A DNA stretch of 38,057 nucleotides from a virus. Taxonomy: Duplodnaviria > Caudoviricetes. The stretch is from IMG/VR virus record IMGVR_UViG_3300040985_001906, positions 1-38,057 of that record, one strand, 5' to 3'. Under the pieces are notes generated by a model that was not told where the DNA came from, did not search any database, and saw only the letters and a program-made list of their open reading frames with translations. The position numbers and the translations under genes were made by a program. This document shows positions 310 through 36,893 of the stretch, piece by piece (the first letter of the stretch is position 1; each line of letters begins with the position of its first letter).

Positions 310-461
310 TACCATTAATAACTCTAGTCCGTAACGGATTTGGAACTTGGAAAGAAGTCTTTGAACTTAAAGAACAGTTAGGAATGGACAAACTGATGGA
401 GATTCAAAATATACTTTCTATTATTCAACAAGAAGAAGAATTAGATAATGGCAAGCGTTGA
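195..461 (+). CDS. -1 frameshift extension of tail chaperone (gpGT-like)
   Basis: T-TTT-TTA at 195-201 is correctly phased; the -1 frame is stop-free from 171 to TGA 459-461. Confidence 0.7.
   Translation, partial: FFSNTWNDRKSQAVRFIRSRDPKERQQAYRDYPELRELVPLITLVRNGFGTWKEVFELKEQLGMDKLMEIQNILSIIQQEEELDNGKR
328..338. promoter_or_regulatory. TCCGTAACGGA palindrome, putative protein-binding site
   Basis: One of five exact TCCGTWACGGA copies found by eye. Confidence 0.55.
412..423 (+). promoter_or_regulatory. Putative late promoter element TACTTTCTATTA
   Basis: 36 nt before ATG 448; same 12-mer as at 30360. Confidence 0.6.
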
Positions 462-1002
462 GGGATTAAATAGATTATTAAAAAATTTTAATCAAGTTAA
501 TTTTCGTATTCCCAATATAGAATCAAGATTTTTAGATGTTATAGGAGAAGAATCACTTGAGATGTTAAGGGCAAATACTCCTGTAGATACAGGTAATCTT
601 AGAGATTCTTGGCAACTACAAAAATCAGCACATGAGATAGTAGTAGCAAATGACCAACAGGATTTACTGTCATTACATTTGTTTGGTTCTATACATCATC
701 CAATGCCAAGAAATTTTGTTCAGCAGGTTAATGATGTTGTAGAGAGAGAAGTTCTAAATACGTTAGAAAAAGCATTAGCAGAAAATCATAGATGGTTTTC
801 CAAACTTCCTGGAGGAAAAGGTAGAAAGTTCCAACAGGTAGGAAGAACCTCAGCAGGATTCAAAGGAGGTGTAACATTTGCAGGTAGAGCAACTCTAATC
901 AGAGCAGGCACAGGTAGGAGACAGTTAAAGCGTAGATTATCACTTAGGCGTAGAAGAGGTGGTTCTATTAATCCTGCAAGAAAAGATGTAAAGTTGGGTT
1001 AA
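448..1002 (+). CDS. HK97 gp10-like neck/tail-completion protein with Arg-rich C-terminus
   Basis: N-terminal VEGLNRLLK and TPVDTGNLRDSW motif typical of the gp10 family. Confidence 0.75.
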   Translation: MASVEGLNRLLKNFNQVNFRIPNIESRFLDVIGEESLEMLRANTPVDTGNLRDSWQLQKSAHEIVVANDQQDLLSLHLFGSIHHPMPRNFVQQVNDVVEREVLNTLEKALAENHRWFSKLPGGKGRKFQQVGRTSAGFKGGVTFAGRATLIRAGTGRRQLKRRLSLRRRRGGSINPARKDVKLG

Positions 1003-1016
1003 TACTTCTCTATATC
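1003..1016 (+). promoter_or_regulatory. Putative late promoter element TACTTCTCTATATC
   Basis: 35 nt before ATG 1038; identical to the 32982 copy. Confidence 0.7.
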
Positions 1017-1037
1017 ATTTTTTAAGGAAGTATAAAC

Positions 1038-3587
1038 ATGGTAGTTGGTAAAGATACTGTTACATTCAGATTCCGTCTTGATGCCAAAGAAATGCAACGT
1101 TTGATCAAGGCATTAGAAGCAGATGCAAGACGATTTGGTGCATCTATGGAGAGAGTCAAAGGACAAACTGATAGATTAGGTCCAAGTATCGGAAAATTAG
1201 GAAATAACGCAGCAGCATCAGCAGTTAATTTTCAGACAGCAACTCAAGGTATGCTCAACTTGTCAACAGCAGCAGTTCAAACTTATACATCAATTTCCAA
1301 TTTAGATAGGGCAAACAACAGGGCAAAGATGTCCATCATAGCAGTAGCAAGAGCAGAGGACTTACTCAATAATAAACGACAGAGATTACAAGATATGACA
1401 GATGCAGGAATTACATCAGGTGGAAAGTATGCCAATATGCAAAGAGAAATTGCAACTGCCACAGCAGACCTTACAGTAAAACAAGAGAAACAAAAAATTG
1501 AACAGGCAGCAGTAAACGATATTTATATGCTTTTTGCAACAAACATAGCAAACGTTACAATATCATCATTACAAACAATGGGTGTATTATTAGGACAAGA
1601 AAAAATGGCAAGATTGGCATCTATAGCAACAACAAAATTACACACATTTGCCACATGGGATAATGTAAGAGCTCATAGTATGAATCAAAAAATAATGGCT
1701 ATGAACTCTCCTGTTTTACAATTAACAAAAGCAGGTCATTTGGGAGCAACAATGGCAACAAGATTACATACAGCAGCACTTACTGGATTAAAAATTGCAT
1801 TAGGACCAATAGGACTTATCTTCATTGGTATATCTGCTGCTATGTTAGCATACGAATCAAACTTGGGTGGAGTTAAAGATACAATAAATAATTTACTAGG
1901 AGTTAAAGATCCATTTGAAGAATCTTTGAAAAGAGAAAGAGAATTAACACAAGGATTGACAGAAGATAATAACGCATTGGCAGGATCATTTAAAAAATTA
2001 ATGCCAGTACATGAACAATATATAAAAATGATGAGAGATGCAGCAGTAAACAGAGGAGACTCAAGACTTGCAGCATCATACCAAGCACAGTTACAACAAC
2101 CTGCTCGGCAGGGAAATTTTAGTTCGGGCGTTGGAAGCCCATCCTTCGGTGGAACTGGAGGAGTTTCATCTGGAGTTTCATCTGGAGTTTCATCTGGAGT
2201 TTCAGCAAGTGGTTTAGTTCCATCTGCATATGGATCAACTACTAACACAAATTCACAATTAAATCAAAATATACCAACTAGCCCAACTACAGTAATATCA
2301 AATGATCCTCCAGATCCATTTGGAAGTATCATGCAACAGGAAATGTTCAAACTATTAACACCTCCTGAACAAATGGAAACATTAATGCAGTTGTCAATAT
2401 CTGAGGGATTGAAAGGCAGAAAAGGTTCATCAGAAAAATATATGAATAAAGCAGAGTCTATGAGATATGAAGCAGAATCATGGAGGCCAAGAGGAATTGA
2501 GACTGATCCTGTAAAGGCTTTCAAGGCAGTAGAAAACAGGAACACTTCAATGGAAGCAACTGATTGGAATAAAAGATATTTCCCTACTGGAATGTCAGAG
2601 TCAATATCATTTGGAGGAGATGTAGGAGATGGATCAGGTCTAGCATGGTATCTACAAGGAAGAGATAAATCATTTGATAGAAACTCAGGTAGAGAGATAT
2701 TCTTTGCAGGAACAGGAGGATCAGATATTGCAAATTGGCAGAGACAAGGTGGAGAGTTTAATAGAGATAGTCCAATTATGGACTTGCTTGGATTAAGACA
2801 AGCTGAGGGATTAAGTTTTGAAAAGAGAAATACCAATCTATCAAGACAAAATATGGCACAATTTAATGCTATGAATCAAGGAAATAATGTATCAGATATG
2901 TCAAGATTTCGTGGTCAAGTAACAACACCATTATGGAAGTTACAAAGAAACACAAAAACATTATCAAATTTCCGTAATAGAGTATCAAGAAGAAATGGAT
3001 TTGTAAATGGAATAGGAGGATTAATGCTTAATGCTATAAATAAATTAAAAGGTGGTTCTATGATTTACAGTAGTTCTCATAGAAATATGTCAAAAAAACA
3101 TAGAAATTGGAATGGAATACCTGGATCATCAACTATTGATGAAGCAATAAGAATGGGAATAAAAAGTTTGCCTGAATGGATGGCTATGATTAAAGAAATT
3201 CCAGATGTTGATCAATTTGCAGAAGATAATATGCAACAAGCACATGAAATATTAGGTGCAGTAGCAGGTATAGCAGGTCAATATGTATCAATGGTAAATA
3301 CAGCTAAAAGTGCAGTAGGATTCTCATCAACTACTTTAGGAAAAGCACACGCAGCAGGATTTTCAGGAGCAGGATTATATCAAAATATTTCTTTACTAGC
3401 AGCAACTAAACGTACCAACTTTAACAATACAGAAATCATTGAAGAATCTAAATCTAAACTAAACCTTACAAACTCTCAGACATTTGCTATCAGATTTAAT
3501 GCAACTAGAGGAGATACTGAACTTCAGGACAGATTCCGTTATGTAGATCAGTTAGAGGCCATGTCATCAGGAACATCTCCATTATGA
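1038..3587 (+). CDS. Tape measure protein
   Basis: 849 aa, Ala-rich helical/coiled-coil N-half, hydrophobic LGPIGLIFIGISAA segment, downstream of tube and chaperone. Confidence 0.8.
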   Translation: MVVGKDTVTFRFRLDAKEMQRLIKALEADARRFGASMERVKGQTDRLGPSIGKLGNNAAASAVNFQTATQGMLNLSTAAVQTYTSISNLDRANNRAKMSIIAVARAEDLLNNKRQRLQDMTDAGITSGGKYANMQREIATATADLTVKQEKQKIEQAAVNDIYMLFATNIANVTISSLQTMGVLLGQEKMARLASIATTKLHTFATWDNVRAHSMNQKIMAMNSPVLQLTKAGHLGATMATRLHTAALTGLKIALGPIGLIFIGISAAMLAYESNLGGVKDTINNLLGVKDPFEESLKRERELTQGLTEDNNALAGSFKKLMPVHEQYIKMMRDAAVNRGDSRLAASYQAQLQQPARQGNFSSGVGSPSFGGTGGVSSGVSSGVSSGVSASGLVPSAYGSTTNTNSQLNQNIPTSPTTVISNDPPDPFGSIMQQEMFKLLTPPEQMETLMQLSISEGLKGRKGSSEKYMNKAESMRYEAESWRPRGIETDPVKAFKAVENRNTSMEATDWNKRYFPTGMSESISFGGDVGDGSGLAWYLQGRDKSFDRNSGREIFFAGTGGSDIANWQRQGGEFNRDSPIMDLLGLRQAEGLSFEKRNTNLSRQNMAQFNAMNQGNNVSDMSRFRGQVTTPLWKLQRNTKTLSNFRNRVSRRNGFVNGIGGLMLNAINKLKGGSMIYSSSHRNMSKKHRNWNGIPGSSTIDEAIRMGIKSLPEWMAMIKEIPDVDQFAEDNMQQAHEILGAVAGIAGQYVSMVNTAKSAVGFSSTTLGKAHAAGFSGAGLYQNISLLAATKRTNFNNTEIIEESKSKLNLTNSQTFAIRFNATRGDTELQDRFRYVDQLEAMSSGTSPL
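2160..2204 (+). repeat. 12-bp tandem repeat GGAGTTTCATCT x3.75 (GVSS)
   Basis: Directly visible, in frame within the tape measure gene. Confidence 0.9.
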
Positions 3588-5287
3588 GTATAACAACAGG
3601 ATATGATCCTAGAGAACTTTCTCCTAAGGTAATCATTACAGACTATGCAGGTTCTACACAATATACATACGAGTCAGCAACAATAGCATCAAGTCCAACT
3701 CAGAATTTCAAACTAACTGATCTTAGAATAGAGATGAATGGTAATGGAAATTATGGTTCAGCAACTCTAGTAATAGCAGATAACGGTTCAGCACTTGTAG
3801 ATGCAACTCTAAGAAGAGGATCTTTGATCAAGAGACAATGGGATATTCAGATATATCTTGGTAAGACATCAGGAACTTTACAAAGGTGGTTCTATGGAAA
3901 AATTGTATCAGCAAATATAATTAGACCTGGAACTGGACAACAAGGAATAGCATTAGATTGTGTTGGATGGGGAGTAATACTAAAGGAGAGGATTACAAGG
4001 ATAGTAAGAAATCAAGATAAGGATTCAGATGGATTGACATTAGATGATACAGATACAAAGACTAGATTAGATAATCTCATATTGGATATGTTCACAAAGG
4101 TGGACCATCAGGTAGATGAGAATATTCAACAGATTAACTCAATCACAGCAGCAGTAGCCAATCCTGGATTAGACTCATCAACTTTAGATATTAAAGTGGC
4201 AAACGTAAACGAGTTAGGAAATACATATGCAGGATTTATATCAAGAATGGCAGGGGTAGCAAATGCAGATTGGTATATAGATGCAGATAAGAAACTTATT
4301 GTAAGAGATGCCTTTACCCATGATTCAGGATTTCTTTTCACTAATAATTTGTCAGGATTAGATGCACAAGGTTGGAGTTCAACAAAGATAGGATATTTGA
4401 AGAATCAAGTATTTGGTTGGACAGATTCCACATTTGATTCACTATACTCTTGGATTCATGGATTTGGACACTTTGCTCCATCACTTGATGTATCATATTC
4501 AACTGCTCCAGATGCAGCAGATAACTTAGATACTAGATGGGTAGCAATACCAATAACACCAACAAGAGATAATATATTTAAGATTTCGTTACGGATGACA
4601 AAGACAGGAACCCCAGCTTCTGCACATGAGATTAGAATAGTAGGAGATGATTCAGGAAGTCCAGATGCTACAGATATACGAAGGGTAATTAGAATACCAA
4701 AACAAACTCTCCAGGCATTAGGAACTAGCACACCTGCTGATTGGGCAGAATATCCTGTAACTCCTAAACTGGAAATTACACCAAACGAACAGTTATACAT
4801 TGTATTCCCTAAGTATGGTACTGTAAGTCATACAGTTAATATCAATTACAAAGCTGGAACTGGAACTTATAAGGATAGTTCAGATGGAATAACATGGTCC
4901 TCAGCAACAGGAGCTCCAGCACATAGAGTATATTCTGCAAAGAGATTAATGACATCATTAGAGAATACTGTAGTATCACAAAAACTAGCAGAACCTAGAG
5001 AGAAACTATTACCGATCAGAGGAGACTTGGAAGAACAGACAGTTAGACAGGCCATGATACAAGCAGGACTTATCTTAGGAAAACAGAGAAGAGTATATCA
5101 AGATGTAACAATTACACCAACTACAGACAGAATACCATTAGCATCATATTGCAGACTTCAAGACTCTAAATCAGGGTTGGATATTAAGGCTATCATTGAT
5201 TCATATGAAATAGAAATGCACAGTAATAACAACAGGTTAGGTGCAGACTCTATAAAACTTTCCTTAGACGAGCTATACAGTATTTAG
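3584..5287 (+). CDS. Tail tip / baseplate hub-like protein
   Basis: Follows TMP with ATGA overlap; beta-rich, WFYGKI and WYIDADKKL segments resemble hub proteins. Confidence 0.6.
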   Translation: MSITTGYDPRELSPKVIITDYAGSTQYTYESATIASSPTQNFKLTDLRIEMNGNGNYGSATLVIADNGSALVDATLRRGSLIKRQWDIQIYLGKTSGTLQRWFYGKIVSANIIRPGTGQQGIALDCVGWGVILKERITRIVRNQDKDSDGLTLDDTDTKTRLDNLILDMFTKVDHQVDENIQQINSITAAVANPGLDSSTLDIKVANVNELGNTYAGFISRMAGVANADWYIDADKKLIVRDAFTHDSGFLFTNNLSGLDAQGWSSTKIGYLKNQVFGWTDSTFDSLYSWIHGFGHFAPSLDVSYSTAPDAADNLDTRWVAIPITPTRDNIFKISLRMTKTGTPASAHEIRIVGDDSGSPDATDIRRVIRIPKQTLQALGTSTPADWAEYPVTPKLEITPNEQLYIVFPKYGTVSHTVNINYKAGTGTYKDSSDGITWSSATGAPAHRVYSAKRLMTSLENTVVSQKLAEPREKLLPIRGDLEEQTVRQAMIQAGLILGKQRRVYQDVTITPTTDRIPLASYCRLQDSKSGLDIKAIIDSYEIEMHSNNNRLGADSIKLSLDELYSI

Positions 5288-5289
5288 GT

Positions 5290-6072: not shown

Positions 6073-6073
6073 A

Positions 6074-6087
6074 TACTTCTCTTTGTT
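6074..6087 (+). promoter_or_regulatory. Putative late promoter element TACTTCTCTTTGTT
   Basis: 34 nt before ATG 6108; identical to the 12010 copy. Confidence 0.7.
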
Positions 6088-6107
6088 ATAATATTTTATT
6101 AAAAATC

Positions 6108-11547: not shown

Positions 11548-11825
11548 TGGCAAGAGCAAAGAGTGGCACAAGGATGGCTTATGTCTCCATGATGTCAGAG
11601 GAGAAAGAACTAGCCTGGATAACAAATCATTATAATGGATTACTAGATTCCGTAACGGAAATAGAATCTATCACATCAGAGGCAGGAACAGTATTACAAA
11701 CTGAAGATTCTTTATCATTGGAAATGAATGTTGCTCCTGCTGATACAGAGGTATTTAGTATATCATTTGTAGCAGATGATAATCCCACACCTATCCAAAC
11801 AGTAGGCGAATTTAAGGCTAGTTAA
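11547..11825 (+). CDS. Small tail protein, possible C-terminal half of the 5290 LamG protein
   Basis: GTG start; AWITNHYN resembles a LamG C-terminal helix; SEAGTVLQTEDS is similar to [12 protein letters not shown] in the 5290 ORF. Confidence 0.5.
   Translation: MARAKSGTRMAYVSMMSEEKELAWITNHYNGLLDSVTEIESITSEAGTVLQTEDSLSLEMNVAPADTEVFSISFVADDNPTPIQTVGEFKAS
11648..11660. promoter_or_regulatory. TTCCGTAACGGAA palindrome
   Basis: Exact motif copy, extended by 1 bp on each side. Confidence 0.55.
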
Positions 11826-12003
11826 TACCTAACTCGAATTTAACTTGATCTTGTAGAACAGGATCGTCAGTAAGTTCATCTAATTTTAATTGGATATTTT
11901 GATTGTATAATAAGGTTAATTCGTGCATAGATACCATACCCTCCATATCTCTTTCTAATTTAGTCATATCTCTTAACTTCTCTGACCTTGATATTTTATT
12001 CAT
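11818..12003 (-). CDS. Small antisense hypothetical protein
   Basis: Fills the gap between plus-strand genes; TATA-like TATTTAAAA upstream on the minus strand. Confidence 0.6.
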   Translation of the reverse strand: MNKISRSEKLRDMTKLERDMEGMVSMHELTLLYNQNIQLKLDELTDDPVLQDQVKFELGIN

Positions 12004-12009
12004 GATTAA

Positions 12010-12023
12010 TACTTCTCTTTGTT
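12010..12023 (+). promoter_or_regulatory. Putative late promoter element TACTTCTCTTTGTT
   Basis: 34 nt before ATG 12044. Confidence 0.7.
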
Positions 12024-12043
12024 TTAAATAAGGGAAGTTAAAT

Positions 12044-19527: not shown

Positions 19528-19944
19528 ATGATTCCGAAATCAAAGGGTGCTGAAGATAGTTGCCCTTCTTGTCACAAAGTTCTCGTATGCCGAGAAAAGG
19601 AGTACAAAGGAGAGACTTCCTTACAATGGCAATACAAGGACAAAGAAGAAGCTCATTTTAGCTTTGACTATAAGACAAAAAAAACATCTTGTAAGGAAAG
19701 TGCAACAGGCTTTGCCGAGACAAGAGTTAGCAATACTTCAGCAGATAAAATCAACCTTGATGGAATATCAACACCAGGAGATCAGATGGACATGATCATC
19801 AAGAGTGCTGCTGAACTGACAGAACGAATGTTGTGTATTTTAAGTGGCGTTCAAAAGGTGTGCAACAATGTAGGTATTACACATCCTGCAACCATTGGCA
19901 TGATATTCAATCAGGTCTGTGAAAACAGAAGAAACACCGAGTAA
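19528..19944 (+). CDS. Hypothetical protein with CxxC
   Basis: CTTATAT about 30 nt upstream; CPSC. Confidence 0.7.
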   Translation: MIPKSKGAEDSCPSCHKVLVCREKEYKGETSLQWQYKDKEEAHFSFDYKTKKTSCKESATGFAETRVSNTSADKINLDGISTPGDQMDMIIKSAAELTERMLCILSGVQKVCNNVGITHPATIGMIFNQVCENRRNTE

Positions 19945-19987
19945 TAGTATATAACGGTTTATATACTAAAACTCTTCCTTTTTTATT

Positions 19988-21097
19988 ATGAATGAGGAAG
20001 CAAACATTCTTATAGACAGGATTTCCAAAATCTCAAATGGTATCAAATCAGATCTTAAACCATTAATCATTAAACTATCCAAAAATATAGCAGATAATAT
20101 CAATCATCCTGAAATAAAAGCTATAGCTAATGCTGCTGGTATTAAAGATCCTAAATTAACTGATGTTGCAAGGATTATGAATAGGATCAGAGAGAAGCAG
20201 AGATGGGCATTTGGACATTCAGCTATGTATGATTATCTCGAACCAAAGTACAAGGATGGAAAGAAAGATGTGGTAGGGAACACCAACCTGGTAAGATTAA
20301 CAGATAATAAGATAGAGGAATTAGTAGAATCCTATATAGCAGATAATGTAGATATTGTAGATGAACAGTTAAAGGCATTAAAGAGATTGACAACACCTGC
20401 CAAAGACATCATAACAAAGGCAAGAAAGGAAGAGATGGAACAGTACACATGGAAGTGCCATCTAGCAAATGAACTGGCCTTACTTGCTATCAAGATGGAG
20501 AATGAACATACAGCAGTATCAAAGAAAGAAGTCAGGGATGGAAAAGTTATACCAGGAGGAAAACCATTACATCATCATGATGATAAGTTATGTAAGGAAT
20601 ATGCCAAGAGGACCAAACTCGTAAGAGACAGTAGATTTGCTACAGATGTCAATTCATATGAGGCAATCATAGTGGCCTGTAACACAACAGACTCACTCAA
20701 ACACGCAATAGCAGGAGAGTGGGAGTTTAAGACAGTATGGGAGGTAAAGAAAGATGAGTCAGAATGTAGGGAATGTATTCAAGAAAGATGTGCTGATGAG
20801 AAATGTAACCATGAATGTCACAGGGTAGTTAGGCCAATGACAACCAAAGGATTAAAGTATGCAATTAAAACCAATGAGGACCTAAAGAGTTTAGACAATA
20901 GGATTAAGATGCTAACAGAGGTACAAAATGACATATGTAGATTGGGTAAGATACTCATAGAGAACCCAAAGACTAAGGCTAAACTAGGTGTAGTAGAGAT
21001 AAAGAAACTCATGTTTAACCACGTAGATAGAGAGGAATGTTTACAATGTGATATGTTCCTTAGTAAAAATCCAGGATTCTTTGACACATTCAAATAA
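19988..21097 (+). CDS. Hypothetical 369-aa protein with Cys clusters
   Basis: TTTATATA about 30 nt upstream; CRECIQERCADEKCNHECH, CLQC. Confidence 0.8.
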   Translation: MNEEANILIDRISKISNGIKSDLKPLIIKLSKNIADNINHPEIKAIANAAGIKDPKLTDVARIMNRIREKQRWAFGHSAMYDYLEPKYKDGKKDVVGNTNLVRLTDNKIEELVESYIADNVDIVDEQLKALKRLTTPAKDIITKARKEEMEQYTWKCHLANELALLAIKMENEHTAVSKKEVRDGKVIPGGKPLHHHDDKLCKEYAKRTKLVRDSRFATDVNSYEAIIVACNTTDSLKHAIAGEWEFKTVWEVKKDESECRECIQERCADEKCNHECHRVVRPMTTKGLKYAIKTNEDLKSLDNRIKMLTEVQNDICRLGKILIENPKTKAKLGVVEIKKLMFNHVDREECLQCDMFLSKNPGFFDTFK

Positions 21098-21342: not shown

Positions 21343-21350
21343 GAAAGAGG

Positions 21351-21611
21351 AAAAATTTCTACCTACTATATAACGCCTAAAAGGTTGGTCCTGGATTACG
21401 GTAAAATAAAGTACAGTACGGTACTCCCCCTTACTGTCATATACCTAATATAAATGTTTCCACCAGGGAAAGCTTTATAATATAGGACCTGGCGAATATC
21501 CAGGACCTGGCGAATATCCAGGGGGGGTACTATAGAAATATCATTTTATCAAATTTTCCAGTAATCAAACAATAACAAGTAATAATAAAAAAAATTTCTA
21601 CCTACTATATA
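21351..21611. repeat. 22-bp direct repeat AAAAATTTCTACCTACTATATA (21351-21372, 21590-21611)
   Basis: Two exact copies in non-coding DNA. Confidence 0.85.
21484..21530. repeat. 18-bp tandem AGGACCTGGCGAATATCC x2 followed by G7-TAC
   Basis: Directly visible; each unit forms CCTGG-N7-CCAGG. Confidence 0.9.
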
Positions 21612-21925
21612 GAACATAAAATTTTTTTGAAATCTTTTTGATATTTAAAGATTACTTTTATTAAAGTATTTTGTATGGATAATAAGCATAGTATGCAAAC
21701 TAAGCATACAATTAGAAAATTTAGATAAAATATTCTAAAGTCTTTATTTTTTCAAATACTAAACAAATACGCAAGATCGGCATAATGTTTTTTAAATTTC
21801 TTAATTCGTATAGAAACTATGAAAACTATATAGATCAATATAGATATTAAGCTTACTAATTACACATTTTGTCAAATTAATCTACATTAAATCTTTATAT
21901 CAAAACTATACGCATACTTAGAGTA

Positions 21926-22129
21926 ATGAAAGTTCAATCATCAAATAAACAAGAATGGTATAATGTAACTTGCGATCAATGTACGTGCCCAGATTTTACT
22001 TTTAGAGATAAAGCACAAAATCGTTTAAGTTGTAAATGTGGAAAAACCTTTGAGTGCAAACTATGTTCTTGTAAGCATCAAAGAGAAAATATAGATCAGT
22101 TAAAAATTGAGGCTTTAGAAAATGAGTGA
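21926..22129 (+). CDS. SWIM zinc-finger protein
   Basis: YNV..CTCPDF...CKH; CTTTATAT about 30 nt upstream. Confidence 0.8.
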   Translation: MKVQSSNKQEWYNVTCDQCTCPDFTFRDKAQNRLSCKCGKTFECKLCSCKHQRENIDQLKIEALENE

Positions 22130-23531
22130 AATATTAAAAATTAAAGATTCAACTTTAGGAAGTACAAAATATATTTTAACTGGCAAACAGCACATAAAAT
22201 TTTTAGGTTTAGAGCTTGAAGGAAGGTACAAAAATGGTCATTCAGAATTAAAAGGAGATTCAAGCGTTGAAGGTTTTGATACTGATTATAATGAATGTGA
22301 AGGTTATTGTAGAGATAATTGTGAATGTTCATCTTATTGTGAATGTGAATCATGTCAAGTATGTGATCAATGTGAAAAATCTTTAGATGAATGTGTATGT
22401 GAATCATGTTTAAAATGTAATGATTGTAATAATGGCTATTCAGATTGTGAATGTGAAATTGAGAAAATATGCGATAATAAAGAATGTGATCCAATGGATC
22501 GATGTAATGAATGTATTGAATCATTCCAAGAATTACAAGATTTAACACATGACTGTAGATATTTCGGTAATACTTACAATAATTGCTGTTTAGATTGTTC
22601 TTGTATCTGTCAATGTGAATGTAATTGTGAAAATAATAATGAAGTTGGTGAAGTATCTAGTCCAAAATTAAAAGTAAATGAAGCTAAAGATTGGATTTTA
22701 AATAATTATCCCGATGAACATAATTCAACTTGTGGATTACATATACATTTGAGTTTTTTAGATGATAAACAAGCTTATCACATTATATCAACTAAAAGAT
22801 TTTATGATCATTTTATGAAGGAAATAAGACAATGGAGTATAGACAGAAAAATTAATGATTATTCAAGATTCATAAAAAGACTAAATGGCGTAAAGTATTC
22901 TTTAGATGAATACCATGCTGATCAGCAAATAATATCAGAATGTGAAACTCGTTATACGCATCTTAATTATTGTTATAATAAATTTACAGATAATAATCAC
23001 GAATTTGGTACGGTTGAAATTCGTGTAGGTACGGTTTTTGATGATCCAAATTTATCAGTCGAATATGTGCATAAAGTAATTCAGATATTTAATGAATATT
23101 TAGATAAAAATAAACCAAATAAATTCATTTATTCAAAATATGTAAAATTGAATAATGCTTACAATTTCACCCTTCATTTAGACATTGAACATAAAGAAAA
23201 AGGAATTGAAATATATGTTAAATCTGATAGATTCAATCAATTATATGATGTTGATAAACAAGATATTAAAAAAATTGAAGTTAATAATTATAAAATGACT
23301 TTTTTCAATTCAATGATTAATCATATTGATCAATCTGAAAATTTTGAATCTCTTAAAGTCTATAATTCGGAAAAAAATTGTTTTTTACCTAATTTTAATT
23401 TCTTAAAGTTGAAGGGTTTAAAAAATGGACAAAAATTCTTTATCAAGGGATTATACACGGAAAAACACATTGATAATTATTTGAGTTTAATAGATGATAA
23501 TTTAGAGTATTTCTGTAAGGAGTATTGTTAA
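22122..23531 (+). CDS. Putative amidoligase (COOH-NH2 ligase, glutamine synthetase/GCS fold) with Cys-rich insert
   Basis: GLELE, DSSV, GEVSSP, CGLHIHLS, RYTHLN, TVEIR motifs. Confidence 0.8.
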   Translation: MSEILKIKDSTLGSTKYILTGKQHIKFLGLELEGRYKNGHSELKGDSSVEGFDTDYNECEGYCRDNCECSSYCECESCQVCDQCEKSLDECVCESCLKCNDCNNGYSDCECEIEKICDNKECDPMDRCNECIESFQELQDLTHDCRYFGNTYNNCCLDCSCICQCECNCENNNEVGEVSSPKLKVNEAKDWILNNYPDEHNSTCGLHIHLSFLDDKQAYHIISTKRFYDHFMKEIRQWSIDRKINDYSRFIKRLNGVKYSLDEYHADQQIISECETRYTHLNYCYNKFTDNNHEFGTVEIRVGTVFDDPNLSVEYVHKVIQIFNEYLDKNKPNKFIYSKYVKLNNAYNFTLHLDIEHKEKGIEIYVKSDRFNQLYDVDKQDIKKIEVNNYKMTFFNSMINHIDQSENFESLKVYNSEKNCFLPNFNFLKLKGLKNGQKFFIKGLYTEKHIDNYLSLIDDNLEYFCKEYC

Positions 23532-23532
23532 T

Positions 23533-24390
23533 ATGTGCGTTATTTCTGTTATTGAGAATTTGGATCAAATACCATCTAAACAAACTACTGAATTAATGGA
23601 AAAAGCAAATAATGATGGTAATGGCTTTTGTAAATGGGATAAAAAACAAAAATGTATCTATATGAAAAAAGGTATAACATTAGATGAATTAAACGAGCTA
23701 ACAAATAAAGCAAAAAACGAGGGTAATTTATCAATGATTCAACATTATAGAATTGCTTCAAGTGGAAATAGTGAGAGTAAATTAAATACACATGGTTTTT
23801 TAATTGAAAATATGTCCAATAATGATTTAGAATGTCATACAAACAAAGATGTCTTTTTTCATAATGGTACGTTAGATATGGATAAGTTAAACGAAATAGC
23901 CATTAAAATTATGACTTTAAACAAATACGCTGTTTATCCTTCAAACCGTGATCAAACGGAAATTTCTGACAGTCGCTTAATGAGTTGGATATTGAATTAC
24001 GTTGATCATTCAATATTGAATCTATTTACAGATAATAATAAATTCGTAATAATGAATGGTAGATCAGGAAAAATTAAAAAATATGGATCATGGGATTTAG
24101 TAAAAGATGAAAATAACAATAATACATTAGTCACATCTAACAATTACTTTAAACAAACTTATTTTCAATATATTACTGATTTTTCATCTTATGACAATGA
24201 AAATTATATGAAATTTGTATCTAATGAAGAGAAAACAGAGATTAAAAGAGTATTAAAAAAATATAAAAATATTGGTTTAACTAAAGATCAAATATATGAG
24301 GAATATTTAGAGTATGGTATTAGCGTATATGACATTGAAGATCAGATCGAAAGTGAGTTAAAAATGAGTGAGAATAATTATGAGTATTGA
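23533..24390 (+). CDS. Class II (Ntn) glutamine amidotransferase
   Basis: Cys2 (MCVI), NNDGNG, HYRIAS, THGF, FHNG, SDS. Confidence 0.88.
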   Translation: MCVISVIENLDQIPSKQTTELMEKANNDGNGFCKWDKKQKCIYMKKGITLDELNELTNKAKNEGNLSMIQHYRIASSGNSESKLNTHGFLIENMSNNDLECHTNKDVFFHNGTLDMDKLNEIAIKIMTLNKYAVYPSNRDQTEISDSRLMSWILNYVDHSILNLFTDNNKFVIMNGRSGKIKKYGSWDLVKDENNNNTLVTSNNYFKQTYFQYITDFSSYDNENYMKFVSNEEKTEIKRVLKKYKNIGLTKDQIYEEYLEYGISVYDIEDQIESELKMSENNYEY

Positions 24391-25182: not shown

Positions 25183-25471
25183 CATAGTAAGCATTAATCA
25201 ATCATAGTATAATCATTCATAATATCATTAAGTATTATCATTAAGTATCTAGTCATAAATTATAATATTACTTCCATTACTTTATTAAAAATCAGGGCGA
25301 CCTTTTTCCCTTTATTTATAGTTTTTGGTCCAGCGATATCCTTATATAGCCCAGGAATTGGTCCAAAAAGGCCTATATATACATTACTCTGCTTTATATA
25401 CTAAATGCGATCTCACAAACACTTATTAATAGCTAAAACTATTGTATAATGACGTTTTATTATTTTTTCGC

Positions 25472-25542
25472 GTACCGTACATTACTTTAAAGTACCTGGG
25501 GGTACGGTACGGCCTTATATACTGTACCGTACAGTACAGTAC
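25472..25542. repeat. Cluster of (GTACN)n palindromic repeats
   Basis: GTACCGTAC 25472, GTACGGTAC 25502, GTACCGTACAGTACAGTAC 25524. Confidence 0.85.
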
Positions 25543-25657
25543 TATAAAAACCTACCTCGCCGTAGCAACACTTATATAGGGGGAAAAGTCGTTTTTTAAA
25601 GCCGAAATAAAATTCCGAAAATCAGTCCGACCTAATTATAAAAAAGGATGATTGAAT

Positions 25658-26945: not shown

Positions 26946-26962
26946 GATGGGCTTCGCCCATC
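26946..26962. other. Perfect hairpin GATGGGC-TTC-GCCCATC (GCGAAGC on the minus strand)
   Basis: 7-bp stem, 3-nt loop, GC-rich in an AT-rich intergenic region. Confidence 0.7.
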
Positions 26963-26995
26963 ACTTCCTGTATAGTATAGGTATTGTAAGTAGGT

Positions 26996-30064: not shown

Positions 30065-30360
30065 ACCTTATAACTTGGGATTTTTCTCTTTTGTTTCTTA
30101 TCTTTAATTTCATCAAATGAGACTATAAATGACTTGAACTGACCTATGGTCATGATTGGTGTAATCCCTCTCATCAAAGCAATATATAAAATAACATTAG
30201 GATCTGTATTTTGACGTAACTGTTCTAAACATATTCTATCTGTCAAATATGCTCCCCATCTAACTACCTCATAACAATGATTCTTAGCAAGATCCTCAAC
30301 GTCTCCGTTACGGATTGGTTTATTAGGTTCAAAAGGAGAAGGTGTATGTGCTGCTAACAT
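30061..30360 (-). CDS. Antisense hypothetical protein
   Basis: 99 aa, fills the gap; TTTATATA on the minus strand at 30383-30390. Confidence 0.65.
   Translation of the reverse strand: MLAAHTPSPFEPNKPIRNGDVEDLAKNHCYEVVRWGAYLTDRICLEQLRQNTDPNVILYIALMRGITPIMTIGQFKSFIVSFDEIKDKKQKRKIPSYKV
30304..30314. promoter_or_regulatory. TCCGTTACGGA palindrome
   Basis: Exact motif copy. Confidence 0.55.
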
Positions 30361-30371
30361 ACTTTCTATTA
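30360..30371 (+). promoter_or_regulatory. Putative late promoter element TACTTTCTATTA
   Basis: 36 nt before ATG 30396. Confidence 0.6.
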
Positions 30372-30761: not shown

Positions 30762-30768
30762 TACTTCC
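30762..30768 (+). promoter_or_regulatory. Putative late promoter element TACTTCC
   Basis: 36 nt before the portal ATG 30798. Confidence 0.55.
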
Positions 30769-32273: not shown

Positions 32274-32562
32274 AATATATACAGATTCCGAAACGACAAA
32301 GACCATAGAGGCACTTGACTTAGGAAGAGTGTTACTAGGAGAGACTAAGAAATATACAGTATTCATAAAGAATACAGATTCTGAATGGCCTGTTCATAAT
32401 ATCAAAATTGAAAACACTAATCCAGAACTTAGATTTGAAGCTCCTCAGACATTAGAGGCCAATGAGGTTAAAGAGGTTGCTGTTTATTGGACACCAAAAT
32501 TAGATAGTAGAAAACCTCTAAGAACTGAATTTAAATTCTCAGGCGATATATTCATAGGATAA
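32266..32562 (+). CDS. Ig-like virion protein
   Basis: LDLGRV..GETK..VFIKN...V.WTP pattern. Confidence 0.6.
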   Translation: MIRIYTDSETTKTIEALDLGRVLLGETKKYTVFIKNTDSEWPVHNIKIENTNPELRFEAPQTLEANEVKEVAVYWTPKLDSRKPLRTEFKFSGDIFIG

Positions 32563-32981: not shown

Positions 32982-32995
32982 TACTTCTCTATATC
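32982..32995 (+). promoter_or_regulatory. Putative late promoter element TACTTCTCTATATC
   Basis: 34 nt before ATG 33016. Confidence 0.7.
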
Positions 32996-33015
32996 GGTTT
33001 AAACTGAAATTACTC

Positions 33016-34830
33016 ATGGCAGAACGTATTGCTGGGATTGCTCTCATGCCTAGAGAGTCACGTAATGGTGTATATTATGATACTGAGGAATTAAAGAAAT
33101 TTGACGGTGTTTCTGTACCACTAAGAGTTGAACATGATAAGAATACTCATATTGGAGAAGTCACATTTACATTTGATGAAATTAAGAGTCAGGTAAAATA
33201 TGAGGCTAGTATATTTGATTCTGAATGGCAAGACATACTAAGTAATGAACAATATCAGGTATCAATAGGAGCATCAGTATTAGAACAAAGAGAGTTATGT
33301 GATGAGATGAGAGCAAAATGTCTTAATGCTCCTGTATTAAATGAAATATTAGAATTATCCGTAGTCAGAGTTCCAGGTATTCCTGAGTCCACACTACACG
33401 TTATTGAATCATCCAATGTGCAATATATCAAAATACTTGATGAGGCACAAACAATTACTTCCGATAAACAAACTACAATCAAAGAAAAAGATATGACAAA
33501 CGAAACTTTAGACAATAAAGTAGAGGAAAAAGTCAAAGTCACTATCGAAACAGATGGCGAGATAGAAGTAGGTAAAGCAGAAGCAAAATCTGAAGTTGCT
33601 CCAGCAGTTGAAGCACCAGCTCCAGCAGCAGAAGCAAAAGAAGAAGTAGCTACTGAAAAAATCGCAGAACGTATTGAGAAATCAAACGAAAACACTCTTA
33701 AAACAGTTATTGAAACTGTCAAAGATGCATGGCAACCAAAATCAGAAGTAGCCGAATCAACTAACCAAGGTTATGTTGAAGAGTTATTTGATGATGAGTC
33801 AGCTAAAAAGTTCTTAGACAAAGTCTTTGAAAATGGCTATGGTCGCTTAGTTATCGACAAAGAGGGTTGGATTGAGAATCACACCCAAGAAGGCAGAATT
33901 ACTGCTAACGGAAGTGTTGAAGAAGCAGTTGGTGTATCTGGAACTATTCCAGGTGTAAAACAACGTGCTAACATCTCAGTACAAATCGGCAATAAAACTG
34001 CAACCAGCATTAGACAGTATGGTCAATTTGAGGCCTTACCAACTGGACAAACTACAGCAAGATTCTACAGAATCACAGTTCCAGATGCAGGTGCAATTAC
34101 CGAAAGTGTCTCATCAGACATTTCAGCAAGTACACACACTCTAACATCTATTGATGTTACGTGTGCCATCAGAGGTTGGAGACAAACCATACTCAAAGCA
34201 CAACTTGAGGACTATCCTGCAAGTTTCCTTAACGCAATTAGAGAAACAGCAAGATTAGAAGCAATCAGAGATGAACACAAACTCATCTTAGAGGACCTAG
34301 CCTCAACTGCAAGAGATTATGGTGGTGTTACCACAGCTCCATATCACATTGGTGGATCAGACGGAGTAGCAACAACTTCAACAGTTGAAGAGGATGCAGA
34401 CGGAGAATTTGATGAAGATGGTCTTACATTCGCTAAGAGATACCTTCAAGAACTCGGTCAAGACGTAGGTCCTGGAAAGTTAGTAGCTTTCATTACCCCA
34501 CGAGCTTTTGAATCCCTTGCAACATCATCTGCAATTTCTGAATATGCCCAGATTGGAAACCCTAGTGTTACCAAACTCGGACAATTAGAAAGATTGTACG
34601 GTATTGACATAGTTGTAACCAACGAAGTGAAAGGAGACGTAAGTAATGCAGATCGTAACATTGTTGCTGTCAAAGGTGCAGCATGGGGATTAGCCTCACA
34701 AAGAACAATGGAACTGGAATTACAAAAACAAGTCGCAGGACAATACTGGGATTTGGTCTGGACTCACAGAATAGGTGTCAACGTGATTGATCCTAACACA
34801 TACATCATTGTATCTAGTGTAAACTCCTAG
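33016..34830 (+). CDS. Prohead protease-scaffold-major capsid protein fusion (HK97 fold)
   Basis: RNGVYY, PLRVEH, VSIG, ELSVV..PG; Glu/Ala-rich linker; GAITE, LGQLERLYGIDIVVTN. Confidence 0.88.
   Translation: MAERIAGIALMPRESRNGVYYDTEELKKFDGVSVPLRVEHDKNTHIGEVTFTFDEIKSQVKYEASIFDSEWQDILSNEQYQVSIGASVLEQRELCDEMRAKCLNAPVLNEILELSVVRVPGIPESTLHVIESSNVQYIKILDEAQTITSDKQTTIKEKDMTNETLDNKVEEKVKVTIETDGEIEVGKAEAKSEVAPAVEAPAPAAEAKEEVATEKIAERIEKSNENTLKTVIETVKDAWQPKSEVAESTNQGYVEELFDDESAKKFLDKVFENGYGRLVIDKEGWIENHTQEGRITANGSVEEAVGVSGTIPGVKQRANISVQIGNKTATSIRQYGQFEALPTGQTTARFYRITVPDAGAITESVSSDISASTHTLTSIDVTCAIRGWRQTILKAQLEDYPASFLNAIRETARLEAIRDEHKLILEDLASTARDYGGVTTAPYHIGGSDGVATTSTVEEDADGEFDEDGLTFAKRYLQELGQDVGPGKLVAFITPRAFESLATSSAISEYAQIGNPSVTKLGQLERLYGIDIVVTNEVKGDVSNADRNIVAVKGAAWGLASQRTMELELQKQVAGQYWDLVWTHRIGVNVIDPNTYIIVSSVNS
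33456..33462 (+). promoter_or_regulatory. Putative internal late promoter TACTTCC
   Basis: 37 nt before the in-frame ATG 33493 at the protease/scaffold boundary. Confidence 0.5.
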
Positions 34831-34837
34831 ACAACAA

Positions 34838-34852
34838 TTTTTTTATTTTTTT
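34838..34852 (+). terminator. Archaeal oligo-T terminator after the capsid gene
   Basis: T7-A-T7 immediately after the stop codon. Confidence 0.55.
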
Positions 34853-34858
34853 ACTTCT
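34852..34858 (+). promoter_or_regulatory. Putative late promoter element TACTTCT
   Basis: 34 nt before ATG 34886. Confidence 0.6.
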
Positions 34859-34885
34859 TAACATTCTAATTTCATACATTTTTGT

Positions 34886-35107
34886 ATGGATATAGAGGCA
34901 CGTATATTCGAGAAGTTAGACAAAATTGAGGACAGAATTAATGATTTATGTATAAGACTATCTGCTATGGAAGCAGAATACAACTCTCATATTGGAGATA
35001 TGCAAAGACGACAGGATAGAAAATTAAAAAGGAGAGATTACACTTTAGTAGTTATGGCATTAGGATTAACAACAGTAGAGGTCTTACGAACCTTAGGCGT
35101 GATATAG
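34886..35107 (+). CDS. Coiled-coil plus C-terminal TM protein (holin/XhlA-like architecture)
   Basis: Heptad N-terminus, basic patch, hydrophobic C-terminus. Confidence 0.6.
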   Translation: MDIEARIFEKLDKIEDRINDLCIRLSAMEAEYNSHIGDMQRRQDRKLKRRDYTLVVMALGLTTVEVLRTLGVI

Positions 35108-35146
35108 ACAATAATAGTTATATAGAGTAAGATAAAGCAGTTGGTT

Positions 35147-35317
35147 ATGGCAGGAAATCTAAGATACTATGCTCTTGGTGCTTATGCAGGCTTAATTGCA
35201 TTGTGGACAGCAACAGATCAACTAGCATTGAATGAAACAACGTCAATCGCTTTGTTAGCTCCTATTGCTATATTAATAGGTGCAGACTATATCAAACACA
35301 AACAAGATGTAGAATAG
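35147..35317 (+). CDS. 56-aa two-TM membrane protein (not in ORF track)
   Basis: MAGNLRYYALGAYAGLIALW...IALLAPIAILIGADYIKHKQDVE; TTATATA about 29 nt upstream. Confidence 0.65.
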   Translation: MAGNLRYYALGAYAGLIALWTATDQLALNETTSIALLAPIAILIGADYIKHKQDVE

Positions 35318-35349
35318 AGGTTTTATACTTCTTACTCATTCTTTTTTTT

Positions 35350-35802
35350 ATGATTACTTATCATACTGAGCATATCAATAAACAATTTGTAAAACAAACT
35401 GTATTACATACATTAGCAAATTTATCAATTAGAGATTTATCAGGTTGGTTAAAGAAATGGGATATTCATGTATGGGATCTAAAAGATACTAATCCTCTAT
35501 ATTTTGGTCATATTAAAACAACATCAGGCCAGAAGATAAACACAAATATGCCAAGTGGAGTAACAGGAAAATATAGAATGGATTTATATCTACATGACTC
35601 TACTAATACCTTCAAAGCAAGAGAGAATAGTGATAGGATTATGCACGAAACCTGTCATGCTATCCTAATAGGAACTCCTCATTTCGTATCAGGAGTACAT
35701 GATAATATCAGTAATAGATTCCAGGCAAACTTTTGGTATTGGAATAGGTTCAGATGGAGTAAATTCACTCTATCTATCATAGATATTAGACAATTTTTAT
35801 AA
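35350..35802 (+). CDS. HEXXH metallopeptidase-like protein
   Basis: IMHETCHA with a downstream H (GVHD). Confidence 0.6.
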   Translation: MITYHTEHINKQFVKQTVLHTLANLSIRDLSGWLKKWDIHVWDLKDTNPLYFGHIKTTSGQKINTNMPSGVTGKYRMDLYLHDSTNTFKARENSDRIMHETCHAILIGTPHFVSGVHDNISNRFQANFWYWNRFRWSKFTLSIIDIRQFL

Positions 35803-35816
35803 AAATAAAAAAGGGG

Positions 35817-35996
35817 TTAAAGCCCTAAGCTTTGTATTATATAATCGAACTCTTTCTCAAAGGATTTATCTTCTTCTTCCTTTTGTACGGTAATAGTACC
35901 GTAATTTGAGGTACTAATTTGTATCAAATTCTCTAAATATTTGTTAGATTGTCTAAACCACTCCAAACCTGAGTCAATGAAAAAAATTTGTGACAT
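35817..35996 (-). CDS. Small antisense hypothetical protein
   Basis: MSQIFFIDSG...; TTATATAG on the minus strand at 36019-36026; T-tract downstream. Confidence 0.5.
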   Translation of the reverse strand: MSQIFFIDSGLEWFRQSNKYLENLIQISTSNYGTITVQKEEEDKSFEKEFDYIIQSLGL

Positions 35997-35999
35997 AAA

Positions 36000-36006
36000 T
36001 ACTTCT
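36000..36006 (+). promoter_or_regulatory. Putative late promoter element TACTTCT
   Basis: 35 nt before ATG 36035. Confidence 0.6.
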
Positions 36007-36034
36007 AATGATTGAAGTCTATATAACAATTATT

Positions 36035-36364
36035 ATGACAAAGTACGGTTCTACTGATGAAATGGAAAAATTGGCATGGGGAGGAACTAAATCAGGATCA
36101 ACTCCTGCTACAGTAACAGCTATACAAAATTCCGTAACGGATATGATTAACCTTATACTAAACAGAAACTCTGATTTCACTACTGTACCTACTGCTATTA
36201 ACAGCGTGGCCAATCTTACAGGTTCAGAGATGTTAAGAAACTTGGGAAAGAGGACAGAACTAACCACAGTACAGATATATGATCAGTTAGTAGTGTTATT
36301 GAAGAATTATATGGACCAAGCACCTGATGAACATTCTCGTTGGGGTAATGTGTGGTACACTTGA
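36035..36364 (+). CDS. Head-tail adaptor (gp15/gp6-like)
   Basis: MTKYGSTDEM N-terminus, helical, VPTAI; start reassigned from 36008 by promoter spacing. Confidence 0.6.
   Translation: MTKYGSTDEMEKLAWGGTKSGSTPATVTAIQNSVTDMINLILNRNSDFTTVPTAINSVANLTGSEMLRNLGKRTELTTVQIYDQLVVLLKNYMDQAPDEHSRWGNVWYT
36131..36141. promoter_or_regulatory. TCCGTAACGGA palindrome
   Basis: Exact motif copy. Confidence 0.55.
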
Positions 36365-36879
36365 CCGTTACATTTACTAATCTTTCAGGAGCAAGAGAAA
36401 ACCTTGACAAAACTATTGCAGATTTATTATCTGATAATTGGACAGCAAGTAATATAGACGGTAGTGTAACTCCATATTTCTCATCTGATACTGATGAACC
36501 TGATCAACTTGCAAGAGCTGACGGATCTTGGGTTGCAGAAGTCAGGGTAAACTATTCAAACAGATTGAAATATGAGGGAGATGAATTTGAATTAAACGGA
36601 GATGATAAACACGCTTGGGTATGTACTCTATTCATTGAGATTCAAGGAGAATCATTACAGGGATTACTAGATATGGAAGATGAGGTACATAGAATCCTAT
36701 GGGAGAATAGACCTAACGGAGCAACCAGGTTAAACAAGAGTGACGGAGCAGCATCAGAGGTTGCTTTCTTTGAGGAGTCAGAACCTGAATTTGAACGATT
36801 AGAACCTGAGGGAGATGATGATCAGACACCAACATCTCAAGCAGAACTCAAATGTGTTTACTTTAAGATTAAGAGTTAA
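36352..36879 (+). CDS. Tail terminator/completion protein
   Basis: Acidic alpha/beta protein directly before the tail tube; start may be TTG 36361. Confidence 0.6.
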   Translation: MVHLTVTFTNLSGARENLDKTIADLLSDNWTASNIDGSVTPYFSSDTDEPDQLARADGSWVAEVRVNYSNRLKYEGDEFELNGDDKHAWVCTLFIEIQGESLQGLLDMEDEVHRILWENRPNGATRLNKSDGAASEVAFFEESEPEFERLEPEGDDDQTPTSQAELKCVYFKIKS

Positions 36880-36893
36880 TACTTCTTTATATC
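36880..36893 (+). promoter_or_regulatory. Putative late promoter element TACTTCTTTATATC
   Basis: 35 nt before ATG 36915. Confidence 0.7.

What the first reader, a model, noticed from the sequence alone, without database searches (positions are those of the whole stretch)
412..36893. Virus-specific non-TATA late promoter (TACTTC) at fixed spacing before virion genes
Seen: TACTTC, or the variants TACTTT and CACTTC, starts 34-37 nt before ATG at 412, 1003, 6074, 12010, 26962, 30360, 30762, 32982, 33456, 34852, 36000 and 36880. Three pairs share identical 12-14-mers. Replication and island genes instead have TTTATA-type boxes. Known: the archaeal BRE at this position is purine-rich. Several copies here have no good TATA after them (e.g. 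TACTTCTCTTTGTT, TACTTCTAATGATT). Inference: leaderless late transcripts are recognised by a virus-encoded factor that replaces or redirects TFB/TBP. No TFB or TBP homologue is recognisable, so the factor may be new; the 19988-21097 and 19528-19944 proteins are candidates.
Basis: partly seen in the sequence, partly recalled or inferred. Interest (0 to 1): 0.85.

Follow-up and report, generated by a model that had tools for sequence, protein, structure and literature searches.

The report
Late-gene promoter of archaeal tailed viruses
A six-letter DNA word, TACTTC, sits 34-37 bases before the start of most particle-building transcription units in this virus and its relatives, which likely infect ammonia-oxidising archaea; it is likely a late-gene promoter that replaces the host's usual signal and would be read by a virus-made protein not yet proven.

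Summary
The motif is real. TACTTC starts 33-37 nt before 9 of 58 gene starts (0.11 expected). It is kept before capsid, portal, tube, tape-measure and adaptor genes in relatives, and is absent from replication and most operon-internal genes. One copy lies inside the protease-capsid gene, before an in-frame ATG (33493); marine RNA contigs begin near that ATG (weak hint). Site 412 is a coding artefact; a minus-strand copy (12034-12039) was missed.

'Non-TATA' is overstated: the word fills the BRE slot and a degenerate TATA often follows.

The window is a complete head-tail virus related to Nitrososphaera provirus Nvie-Pro1, which carries a cognate TAGTTC at the same spacing, as does a second virus family. 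No TBP or TFB homologue was found. ORF 19988-21097 is the only non-structural gene in 10 of 10 near-complete relatives (9 were found through it); 19528 is in 2 of 10. Binding is unproven and a host TFB paralogue is not excluded, since no host genome was available.

This scan reported the same motif before on other DNA (e1-10227738, e1-3309797). Verdict: a likely late promoter, new variant of a known kind; reader unidentified.

The parts
1003..1008 (+). TACTTC, -35 to ATG 1038 (tape measure protein)
   Evidence: 6 of 6 distinct relatives; 11 of 11 genomes; gene matches Nvie-Pro1 tape measure, E 1.8e-9
6074..6079 (+). TACTTC, -34 to ATG 6108 (likely tail-fibre block)
   Evidence: 1 of 1 relative
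12010..12015 (+). TACTTC, -34 to ATG 12044 (gene before the tail-collar gene)
   Evidence: 5 of 11 genomes
12034..12039 (-).
   Evidence: same in G027, TACTTC at -34 in G058
26962..26967 (+). CACTTC, -34 to ATG 26996
   Evidence: motif and ORF conserved in L006, L013, L048, L055
26996..27085 (+). 29-aa Cys-rich micro-ORF behind the 26962 site
   Evidence: 97% identical in 4 close relatives
30360..30365 (+). TACTTT variant, -36 to ATG 30396 (gene between terminase and portal)
   Evidence: YACTTY in 24 of 25 distinct relatives, YACTTC in 5 of 25; strict motif in 7 of 11 genomes
30762..30767 (+). TACTTC, -36 to ATG 30798 (portal)
   Evidence: 22 of 22 distinct relatives; only 5 of 11 genomes with crude start calls; Pfam Portal_Mu
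32982..32987 (+). TACTTC, -34 to ATG 33016 (protease-capsid fusion)
   Evidence: 30 of 30 distinct relatives; 10 of 11 genomes; PHROG protease and major head hits
33456..33461 (+). TACTTC inside the fusion ORF, -37 to in-frame ATG 33493; likely internal promoter for the capsid-only product
   Evidence: 29 of 29 distinct relatives, only at -34 or -37, against 13% of Thr-Ser dicodons written this way; 11 of 11 genomes; RNA contigs begin at 33493-33544
34852..34857 (+). TACTTC, -34 to ATG 34886 (small gene after the capsid gene)
   Evidence: 22 of 24 distinct relatives; 7 of 9 genomes
36000..36005 (+). TACTTC, -35 to ATG 36035 (likely head-tail adaptor, by gene order only; true start likely 36035, not 36008)
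   Evidence: 15 of 15 distinct relatives; 11 of 11 genomes
36880..36885 (+). TACTTC, -35 to ATG 36915 (tail tube), followed by a good TATA (TTTATATC)
   Evidence: 16 of 16 distinct relatives; 9 of 11 genomes; Pfam Phage_tube_2
412..417 (+).
   Evidence: 0 of 8 YACTTC in relatives, sequence follows the amino acids
19988..21097 (+). 369-aa orphan (ORF369): predicted helical N-terminal domain, invariant Cys/His clusters; best candidate reader of the motif
   Evidence: only non-structural gene in 10 of 10 near-complete relatives; invariant C260, C263, C277, H278, C317, H345, C351, C354; no Pfam, PHROG or fold match
19958..19965 (+). TTTATATA, ordinary TATA box at -30 of ORF369, so the candidate sits under a host-type promoter
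   Evidence: late motif before ORF369 in 0 of 10 genomes

Best explanation
TACTTC sits 34-37 bases before the starts of structural transcription units and is likely the recognition element of a late promoter class for leaderless messages, most likely read by a virus-made DNA-binding protein, with ORF 19988-21097 as the predicted candidate. Shown: position, strand, restriction to structural units, family-wide conservation, synonymous-level conservation inside a coding region. Inferred: early genes, ORF369 among them, use host TFB and TBP at ordinary BRE-TATA promoters; late promoters carry a pyrimidine word where TFB normally reads purines, plus a weak TATA, so they would be silent until ORF369 accumulates, binds the word and recruits or stands in for TFB. 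The internal copy would give many more capsid-only messages than protease-fusion messages. I put 'promoter element' at about 0.9 and 'element-encoded reader' at about 0.6 of that.
For: Enrichment 9 of 58 against 0.11. Across 591 called genes in 11 genomes the distance to ATG peaks at 34 (35 cases) and 35 (27), no other distance above 9. Conservation by gene. Early TATA boxes start at -29/-30, so the word fills the six bases before a TATA slot; a strong BRE has A at -3 and A/G at -6 (PMC5817253, passages), here both are T. Seven RNA runs from seven studies have no contig across 33456-33493 while run X19 (type not on record) has one; the protease part is about as alike among relatives as the capsid part. 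Cognate words in Nvie-Pro1 (YAGTTC 12 against 1.2 expected) and in a second virus family (10 against 2.8), with 0 in 13.8 kb of host flank. Those elements each encode an orphan helical plus Cys-rich protein family (hhalign 99.7%; also in G076); in Nvie-Pro1 its gene directly precedes terL. ORF369 is in 10 of 10 relatives while MCM is in 8.
Against: No binding or timing data. ORF369 has no recognised fold (model pTM 0.31). Its link to the Nvie-Pro1-1 family is weak: direct comparisons are not significant, and only the N-terminal part aligns through the bridging family (E 5e-4, probability 32%). Nine of the 10 genomes were found through ORF369; only G063 is an independent test, and 0 of 8 MCP-selected fragments (49-72% complete) had it. 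The same core word in unrelated viruses of one host group is also what a host factor would produce. In the second family the third base varies (TAATTC 6, CACTTC 3, TACTTC 2, TAGTTC 1), which weakens 'variant tracks regulator'. In soil contig L092 the words lie mostly 39-48 nt from starts. RNA contigs cannot map starts, the runs were chosen by this region, and they barely cover the other sites.
Confidence: 0.55

Rival explanations
1. The word is an alternative BRE read by a host TFB paralogue (for example a stress- or cell-cycle-induced one), and the viruses time late genes by hijacking that host regulon.
For: The word sits in the BRE slot. The same core occurs in two virus families whose capsid proteins do not match each other's profile and in a chromosomal element. 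No viral TBP or TFB. A TFB paralogue drives a gene wave in Sulfolobus (10.64898/2026.09.06.749720, passages); host TFB copies change during HFTV1 infection (10.64898/2026.09.13.751334, passages). That Nitrosopumilus has many TFBs is recalled, from no call.
Against: 0 sites at the spacing in 13.8 kb of host flank, a very small sample. In Sulfolobus the TFB2 BRE looked similar to the TFB1 BRE (same paper). A pure host factor gives no obvious switch tied to the infection stage. Each element carries its own conserved orphan protein.
Confidence: 0.3
2. The word is an operator for a viral repressor that covers the BRE-TATA region and keeps structural genes off early.
For: Most characterised archaeal viral regulators are repressors that occlude promoters, for example SvtR on a SIRV1 structural gene (PMC5569661, passages).
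Against: The word is non-palindromic, one-directional and fixed within about 3 nt of phase, and it replaces the BRE consensus; many sites lack a good TATA, so they would be weak even unrepressed.
Confidence: 0.08
3. The word is a terminator or RNA-level signal of the upstream gene.
For: 29 of 77 promoter-positioned sites start 0-1 nt after a stop codon, and T-rich tracts follow.
Against: 31 of 77 have no same-strand stop within 60 nt; spacing is fixed to the downstream ATG; one copy is inside an ORF and others sit between divergent genes; RNA cover begins rather than ends downstream of 33456.
Confidence: 0.05
4. Chance matches in AT-rich intergenic DNA.
For: A hexamer in a 34% GC genome; site 412 does appear to be such a case.
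Against: p 6e-15 in the window; 83 against 5.3 expected in ten other genomes.
Confidence: 0.01

Closest known systems
Archaeal BRE-TATA core promoter of leaderless genes (PMC5817253 and PMC5569661, passages)
   Same: Same geometry: a six-base element directly before an AT-rich box about 28-29 nt upstream of the ATG; the virus's own early genes use the ordinary form.
   Different: The BRE slot holds TACTTC (T at -6 and -3) instead of purines, and the TATA is often degenerate or absent.
SIRV1/SIRV2 GTC virus-specific promoter element (PMC5569661, passages)
   Same: A virus-specific cis element inside archaeal viral promoters.
   Different: GTC lies downstream of an intact TATA in most promoters; this word lies upstream, replaces the BRE and marks structural units only.
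Sulfolobus A(N)TTTC UV-response box (PMC5817253, passages; Orc1-2 papers seen only as search listing)
   Same: Non-palindromic pyrimidine-rich hexamer of similar letters, essential at promoters with a weak BRE, thought to help recruit TFB.
   Different: It lies at -44..-39, upstream of the BRE, and belongs to a host regulon; this word lies at about -34..-29.
Virus late promoters with their own specificity factor: T4 gp55, herpesvirus TATT box with viral TBP-like protein (recalled, from no call)
   Same: Short late-only promoter word, host RNA polymerase, presumably a viral reader made early.
   Different: No sigma, TBP or TFB homologue was detected here; reader and timing are unproven.
Nvie-Pro1 of Nitrososphaera viennensis (FR725450; PMC6563490 section 10)
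   Same: Closest annotated relative (capsid 34%, terminase 33%); protease-capsid fusion; cognate TAGTTC/TAATTC at about -34/-35, including before an internal ATG.
   Different: Chromosomal, lacks replication genes, proposed GTA-like; third base G or A; no demonstrable full-length ORF369 homologue. The paper has no occurrence of 'promoter'.
HFTV1 gp17 internal scaffold start (10.64898/2026.09.13.751334, passages)
   Same: An in-frame internal ATG in a prohead protease gene yields a second product.
   Different: There the RNA level is even and the choice is made at translation; here a promoter word precedes the internal ATG and RNA cover steps up there (weak evidence).

Membership tests
Canonical archaeal BRE-TATA promoter | Purine-rich BRE with A at -3 and A/G at -6 before TATA | tested here: not met
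   TACTTC has T at both places if the TATA slot starts at +6; consensus from PMC5817253
Canonical archaeal BRE-TATA promoter | TATA box 26-30 nt before the start site | tested here: inconclusive
   AT-rich bias at +8..+12; TATA-like hexamer in 16 of 71 sites
Canonical archaeal BRE-TATA promoter | Transcription starts at or just before the ATG | tested here: inconclusive
   RNA contigs begin at 33493-33544 in six of seven runs; contigs cannot map starts; few SD-like words
Virus late promoter with viral specificity factor | Word restricted to structural units and conserved in the family | tested here: met
   exceptions: micro-ORF 26996, MCM 1 of 9
Virus late promoter with viral specificity factor | Late timing of the transcripts | not testable with these tools
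   no infection time course exists in the runs found
Virus late promoter with viral specificity factor | A virus-encoded protein binds the word and is needed for initiation | not testable with these tools
   only gene-content support for ORF369
Virus late promoter with viral specificity factor | Virus encodes a sequence-recognisable TBP or TFB | tested here: not met
   0 of 13 records for PF00352 and for PF00382, controls ring
Virus late promoter with viral specificity factor | ORF369 has a TBP, cyclin or sigma fold | tested here: inconclusive
   low-confidence model; searches tested mainly residues 1-95
Host TFB-paralogue regulon | Same word at host promoters | tested here: inconclusive
   0 sites in only 13.8 kb of Nitrososphaera-type flank; no host genome obtained
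Sulfolobus A(N)TTTC box | Located at -44..-39, upstream of the BRE | tested here: not met
   start at -34/-35 from the ATG
SIRV GTC element | GTC downstream of TATA | tested here: not met
   no such conserved bases up to +13 of the word

The most novel reading that the evidence does not exclude
Tailed viruses and GTA-like elements of ammonia-oxidising archaea share a late promoter class, YANTTC in the BRE slot, read by a new family of element-encoded helix-turn-helix plus zinc proteins (ORF369 here, Nvie-Pro1-1 in N. viennensis) that take over TFB's promoter recognition: an archaeal counterpart of a phage late sigma factor, and the master switch of the Nvie-Pro1 particle cluster.
Probability: 0.3. 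Interest if true: 0.85.

Novelty: new variant of a known kind. Interest (0 to 1): 0.6.

Why it matters
How archaeal viruses, which lack their own RNA polymerase, switch to late genes is open (PMC5569661). This gives a defined word, a fixed position, a candidate protein and a cultured test system: Nvie-Pro1 in Nitrososphaera viennensis carries the cognate word before its particle genes. The word also marks true starts and structural genes in orphan-rich thaumarchaeal virus genomes, and suggests that capsid-to-protease ratio is set by an internal promoter. No description was found in nine library searches, but the original Marthavirus and Nvie-Pro1 papers were not read, so prior mention is not excluded.

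Tried and rejected
19528-19944 as reader: 2 of 10 relatives. Site 412: coding. Full-length homology of ORF369 and Nvie-Pro1-1: suggested by eye, not supported by hmmsearch or hhalign. Fold searches of ORF369 and of an Nvie-Pro1-1 homologue (pTM 0.30, best Z 7.5) gave nothing clear; Atlas searches gave no usable hit; PDB sequence and Pfam scans of the alignments gave nothing. Complex prediction of ORF369 with Cenarchaeum TBP: no answer, score 0.00, not used either way. Host genome test: the one genome scan returned only a viral contig in a bacterial MAG; the metagenome scan gave 3 loci; a spindle-virus control record was not held. Nvie-Pro1 capsid and Nvie-Pro1-1 searches of viral contigs found no relative. 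RNA cover was zero or near zero at most other late genes, which says nothing. 'Variant tracks regulator family' looked clean but weakened. The GAAGT words near some ATGs were considered as hairpin arms (not folded); at 12034 they are the opposite-strand copy of the motif.

Full report
What the window is. A complete 38,057-base virus record with about 92 bases repeated at its ends. It encodes terminase, portal, a protease-capsid fusion, tail tube, neck, tail collar, MCM helicase, Hjc resolvase, an exonuclease and two methyltransferases. Among 50,697 annotated phage records its capsid and terminase match only the Nitrososphaera provirus Nvie-Pro1 (34% and 33%). The host is therefore inferred to be an ammonia-oxidising archaeon, probably marine; this is not shown.

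The observation. TACTTC lies at -33..-37 of 9 of 58 curated starts against 0.11 expected; 0 of 5000 shuffles reach this; 1 of 200 internal in-frame ATGs has it. In 50 loci found with the capsid protein (65-98% identity), distinct upstream regions carry YACTTC at -32..-40 in 30 of 30 (protease), 29 of 29 (internal ATG), 22 of 22 (portal), 16 of 16 (tube), 15 of 15 (36035), 6 of 6 (tape measure), 22 of 24 (34886), 1 of 1 (6108) and 5 of 25 (30396; 24 of 25 with TACTTT allowed). It is in 0 of 8 for the neck gene and in none of the 102 regions of ten other genes. In 11 genomes or large fragments, with AACTTC and YAGTTC allowed, the counts are tape measure 11/11, 36035 11/11, internal ATG 11/11, protease 10/11, tube 9/11, 34886 7/9, 30396 7/11, portal 5/11, 12044 5/11, against neck 1/11, baseplate 1/11, MCM 1/9, exonuclease 0/6, ORF369 0/10, terS 0/9, terL 0/11, gene 127 0/8 (crude gene calls, misses not inspected). 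Site 412 follows the amino acids of a small upstream ORF and is rejected. Site 26962 heads a conserved 29-aa micro-ORF, and a missed AACTTC on the minus strand at 12034-12039 serves the divergent gene 11818-12003.

Anatomy. Over 591 called genes the TACTTC-to-ATG distance is 34 in 35 cases, 35 in 27, 36 in 9, 37 in 4 and at most 4 at any other distance. TTTATA-type boxes of motif-free genes start mostly at -29/-30. The extended late consensus is A-W-T-A-C-T-T-C-Y-N-T-T-W-A-T, so the word fills the six bases before a weak TATA-like tract, which is the BRE slot; 16 of 71 sites have a TATA-like hexamer. 'Non-TATA' is thus too strong; 'anti-BRE with a degenerate TATA' fits better. A reading in which TTC overlaps the first TATA bases differs by one or two bases and is not excluded. 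SD-like words occur at 5 of 91 motif starts, 13 of 101 TATA starts and 115 of 396 others, as expected for leaderless messages.

The internal site. 33456 lies in the variable linker of the fusion ORF. All 29 distinct relatives write the Thr-Ser there as YACTTC, against 58 of 441 Thr-Ser dicodons overall, and the spacing is only 34 or 37, the values that keep the frame. These relatives are kin, so 29 is not 29 independent events; the 11 of 11 more divergent genomes carry more weight. In seven metatranscriptome runs from seven studies no contig crosses 33456-33493; the leftmost listed capsid-side contigs begin at 33493 (with 5 further letters), 33507, 33522 (four runs) and 33544, while a contig of run X19 runs through. 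One RNA contig of depth 2.7 lies in the protease part. Piece tables were cut (78 and 15 rows not shown), the runs were selected by this region, and contigs cannot map starts, so this is a weak hint.

Breadth. Nvie-Pro1 has TAGTTC, CAGTTC or TAATTC at about -33..-39 before portal, protease-capsid, an internal ATG (residue 171), tube, tape measure and several small genes: YAGTTC 12 against 1.2 expected. A second family, with RadA and MCM and a capsid that does not match the first family's profile (G073, G072), has YAGTTC 10 against 2.8, also before an internal ATG of the likely protease gene. Ten ORF369-family genomes give TACTTC 83 against 5.3. In three further second-family loci the third base varies, so the common core is YANTTC. 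Host flanks gave 0 sites in 13.8 kb.

No TBP or TFIIB family match in 13 records, with controls ringing. Of 37 window ORFs tested, mostly non-structural, only 19988-21097 is in 10 of 10 near-complete relatives; MCM is in 8 and 19528 in 2. Nine of these genomes were found through ORF369; the one found independently (G063) has it, while 8 partial records do not show it. It has 93 homologues, invariant Cys/His clusters, an ordinary TATA promoter, and a helical N-terminal domain whose weak fold hits include winged-helix proteins (best Z 4.3, not significant). Nvie-Pro1 gene 1, directly before terL, defines another orphan family that is homologous to a protein in second-family viruses. Only the N-terminal domain links that family to ORF369, weakly. 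In soil contig L092 this gene and terL are followed by non-structural genes with similar words at looser spacing.

Mechanism. Shown: a directional, phase-fixed word at structural-unit starts, selected at the DNA level. Inferred: early genes use host TBP and TFB; late promoters are poor TFB sites and wait for a factor that reads the word; the best candidate is ORF369. The main rival, a host TFB paralogue, could not be tested because no host genome was obtained. Repressor, terminator and chance readings fit worse.

Literature. Seen as passages: PMC5569661, PMC5817253, 10.64898/2026.09.06.749720, 10.64898/2026.09.13.751334, 10.1101/2020.04.02.019802. Passages plus one section: PMC6563490 (section 10), 10.1101/2025.08.23.671958 (section 6; no occurrence of 'promoter' or 'motif'). 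Orc1-2 papers: search listing only. T4 and herpesvirus late promoters, and the number of thaumarchaeal TFBs: recalled. Supplements were not read; those of the AOA virus surveys could mention such motifs. Nine searches found no description of this word. This scan's earlier notes e1-10227738 (same word, another contig) and e1-3309797 (GAATAGTTC-like box in another such virus) agree but are not independent evidence.

Verdict. A real, family-wide, likely late promoter element: a new variant of virus-specific late promoters. Interest 0.6.

Noticed in passing
L053:1368-2245: Nvie-Pro1 gene 1 is deposited as a 227-aa ORF, but homologues are about 280 aa and match an upstream piece in another frame; the gene looks frameshifted in N. 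viennensis or in its sequence record.
   Followed up: partly
window 35147-35317: This small membrane-protein gene has a TTATATA box here and in G027, G053, G054, but TACTTC at -35 in G055 and G056: an apparent swap of promoter class.
   Followed up: partly
window 1027-1032 (minus strand): A TACTTC on the minus strand faces back into the neck gene with no ORF; weakly kept in relatives (GGAAGT or GGAATA); possible antisense promoter or chance.
   Followed up: no
L092:9923-18300: Soil contig with an Nvie-Pro1-1 homologue and terL but no capsid genes; the genes behind terL (one resembles a glycosyltransferase by eye) carry motif-like words: possibly a remnant or re-used late regulon.
   Followed up: partly
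window 22122-24390: Low-GC island (about 25-29%) with a 469-aa Cys-rich protein and a 285-aa protein starting MCVI, which by recall resemble an amidoligase and a class II glutamine amidotransferase pair; no Pfam hit; present in 3-4 of 10 relatives.
   Followed up: no
window 25200-25600 and 21350-21900: Long non-coding stretches with GTACGGTACG-like words near the GC-skew change at about 25-27 kb; possible replication origin.
   Followed up: no
G061, G062: These two near-complete relatives have no detectable MCM although they keep ORF369 and the motif.
   Followed up: partly
L054: A 9-kb contig of this virus family (73% capsid identity) is binned in a Neomarinimicrobiota MAG, probably a mis-binning.
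   Followed up: partly
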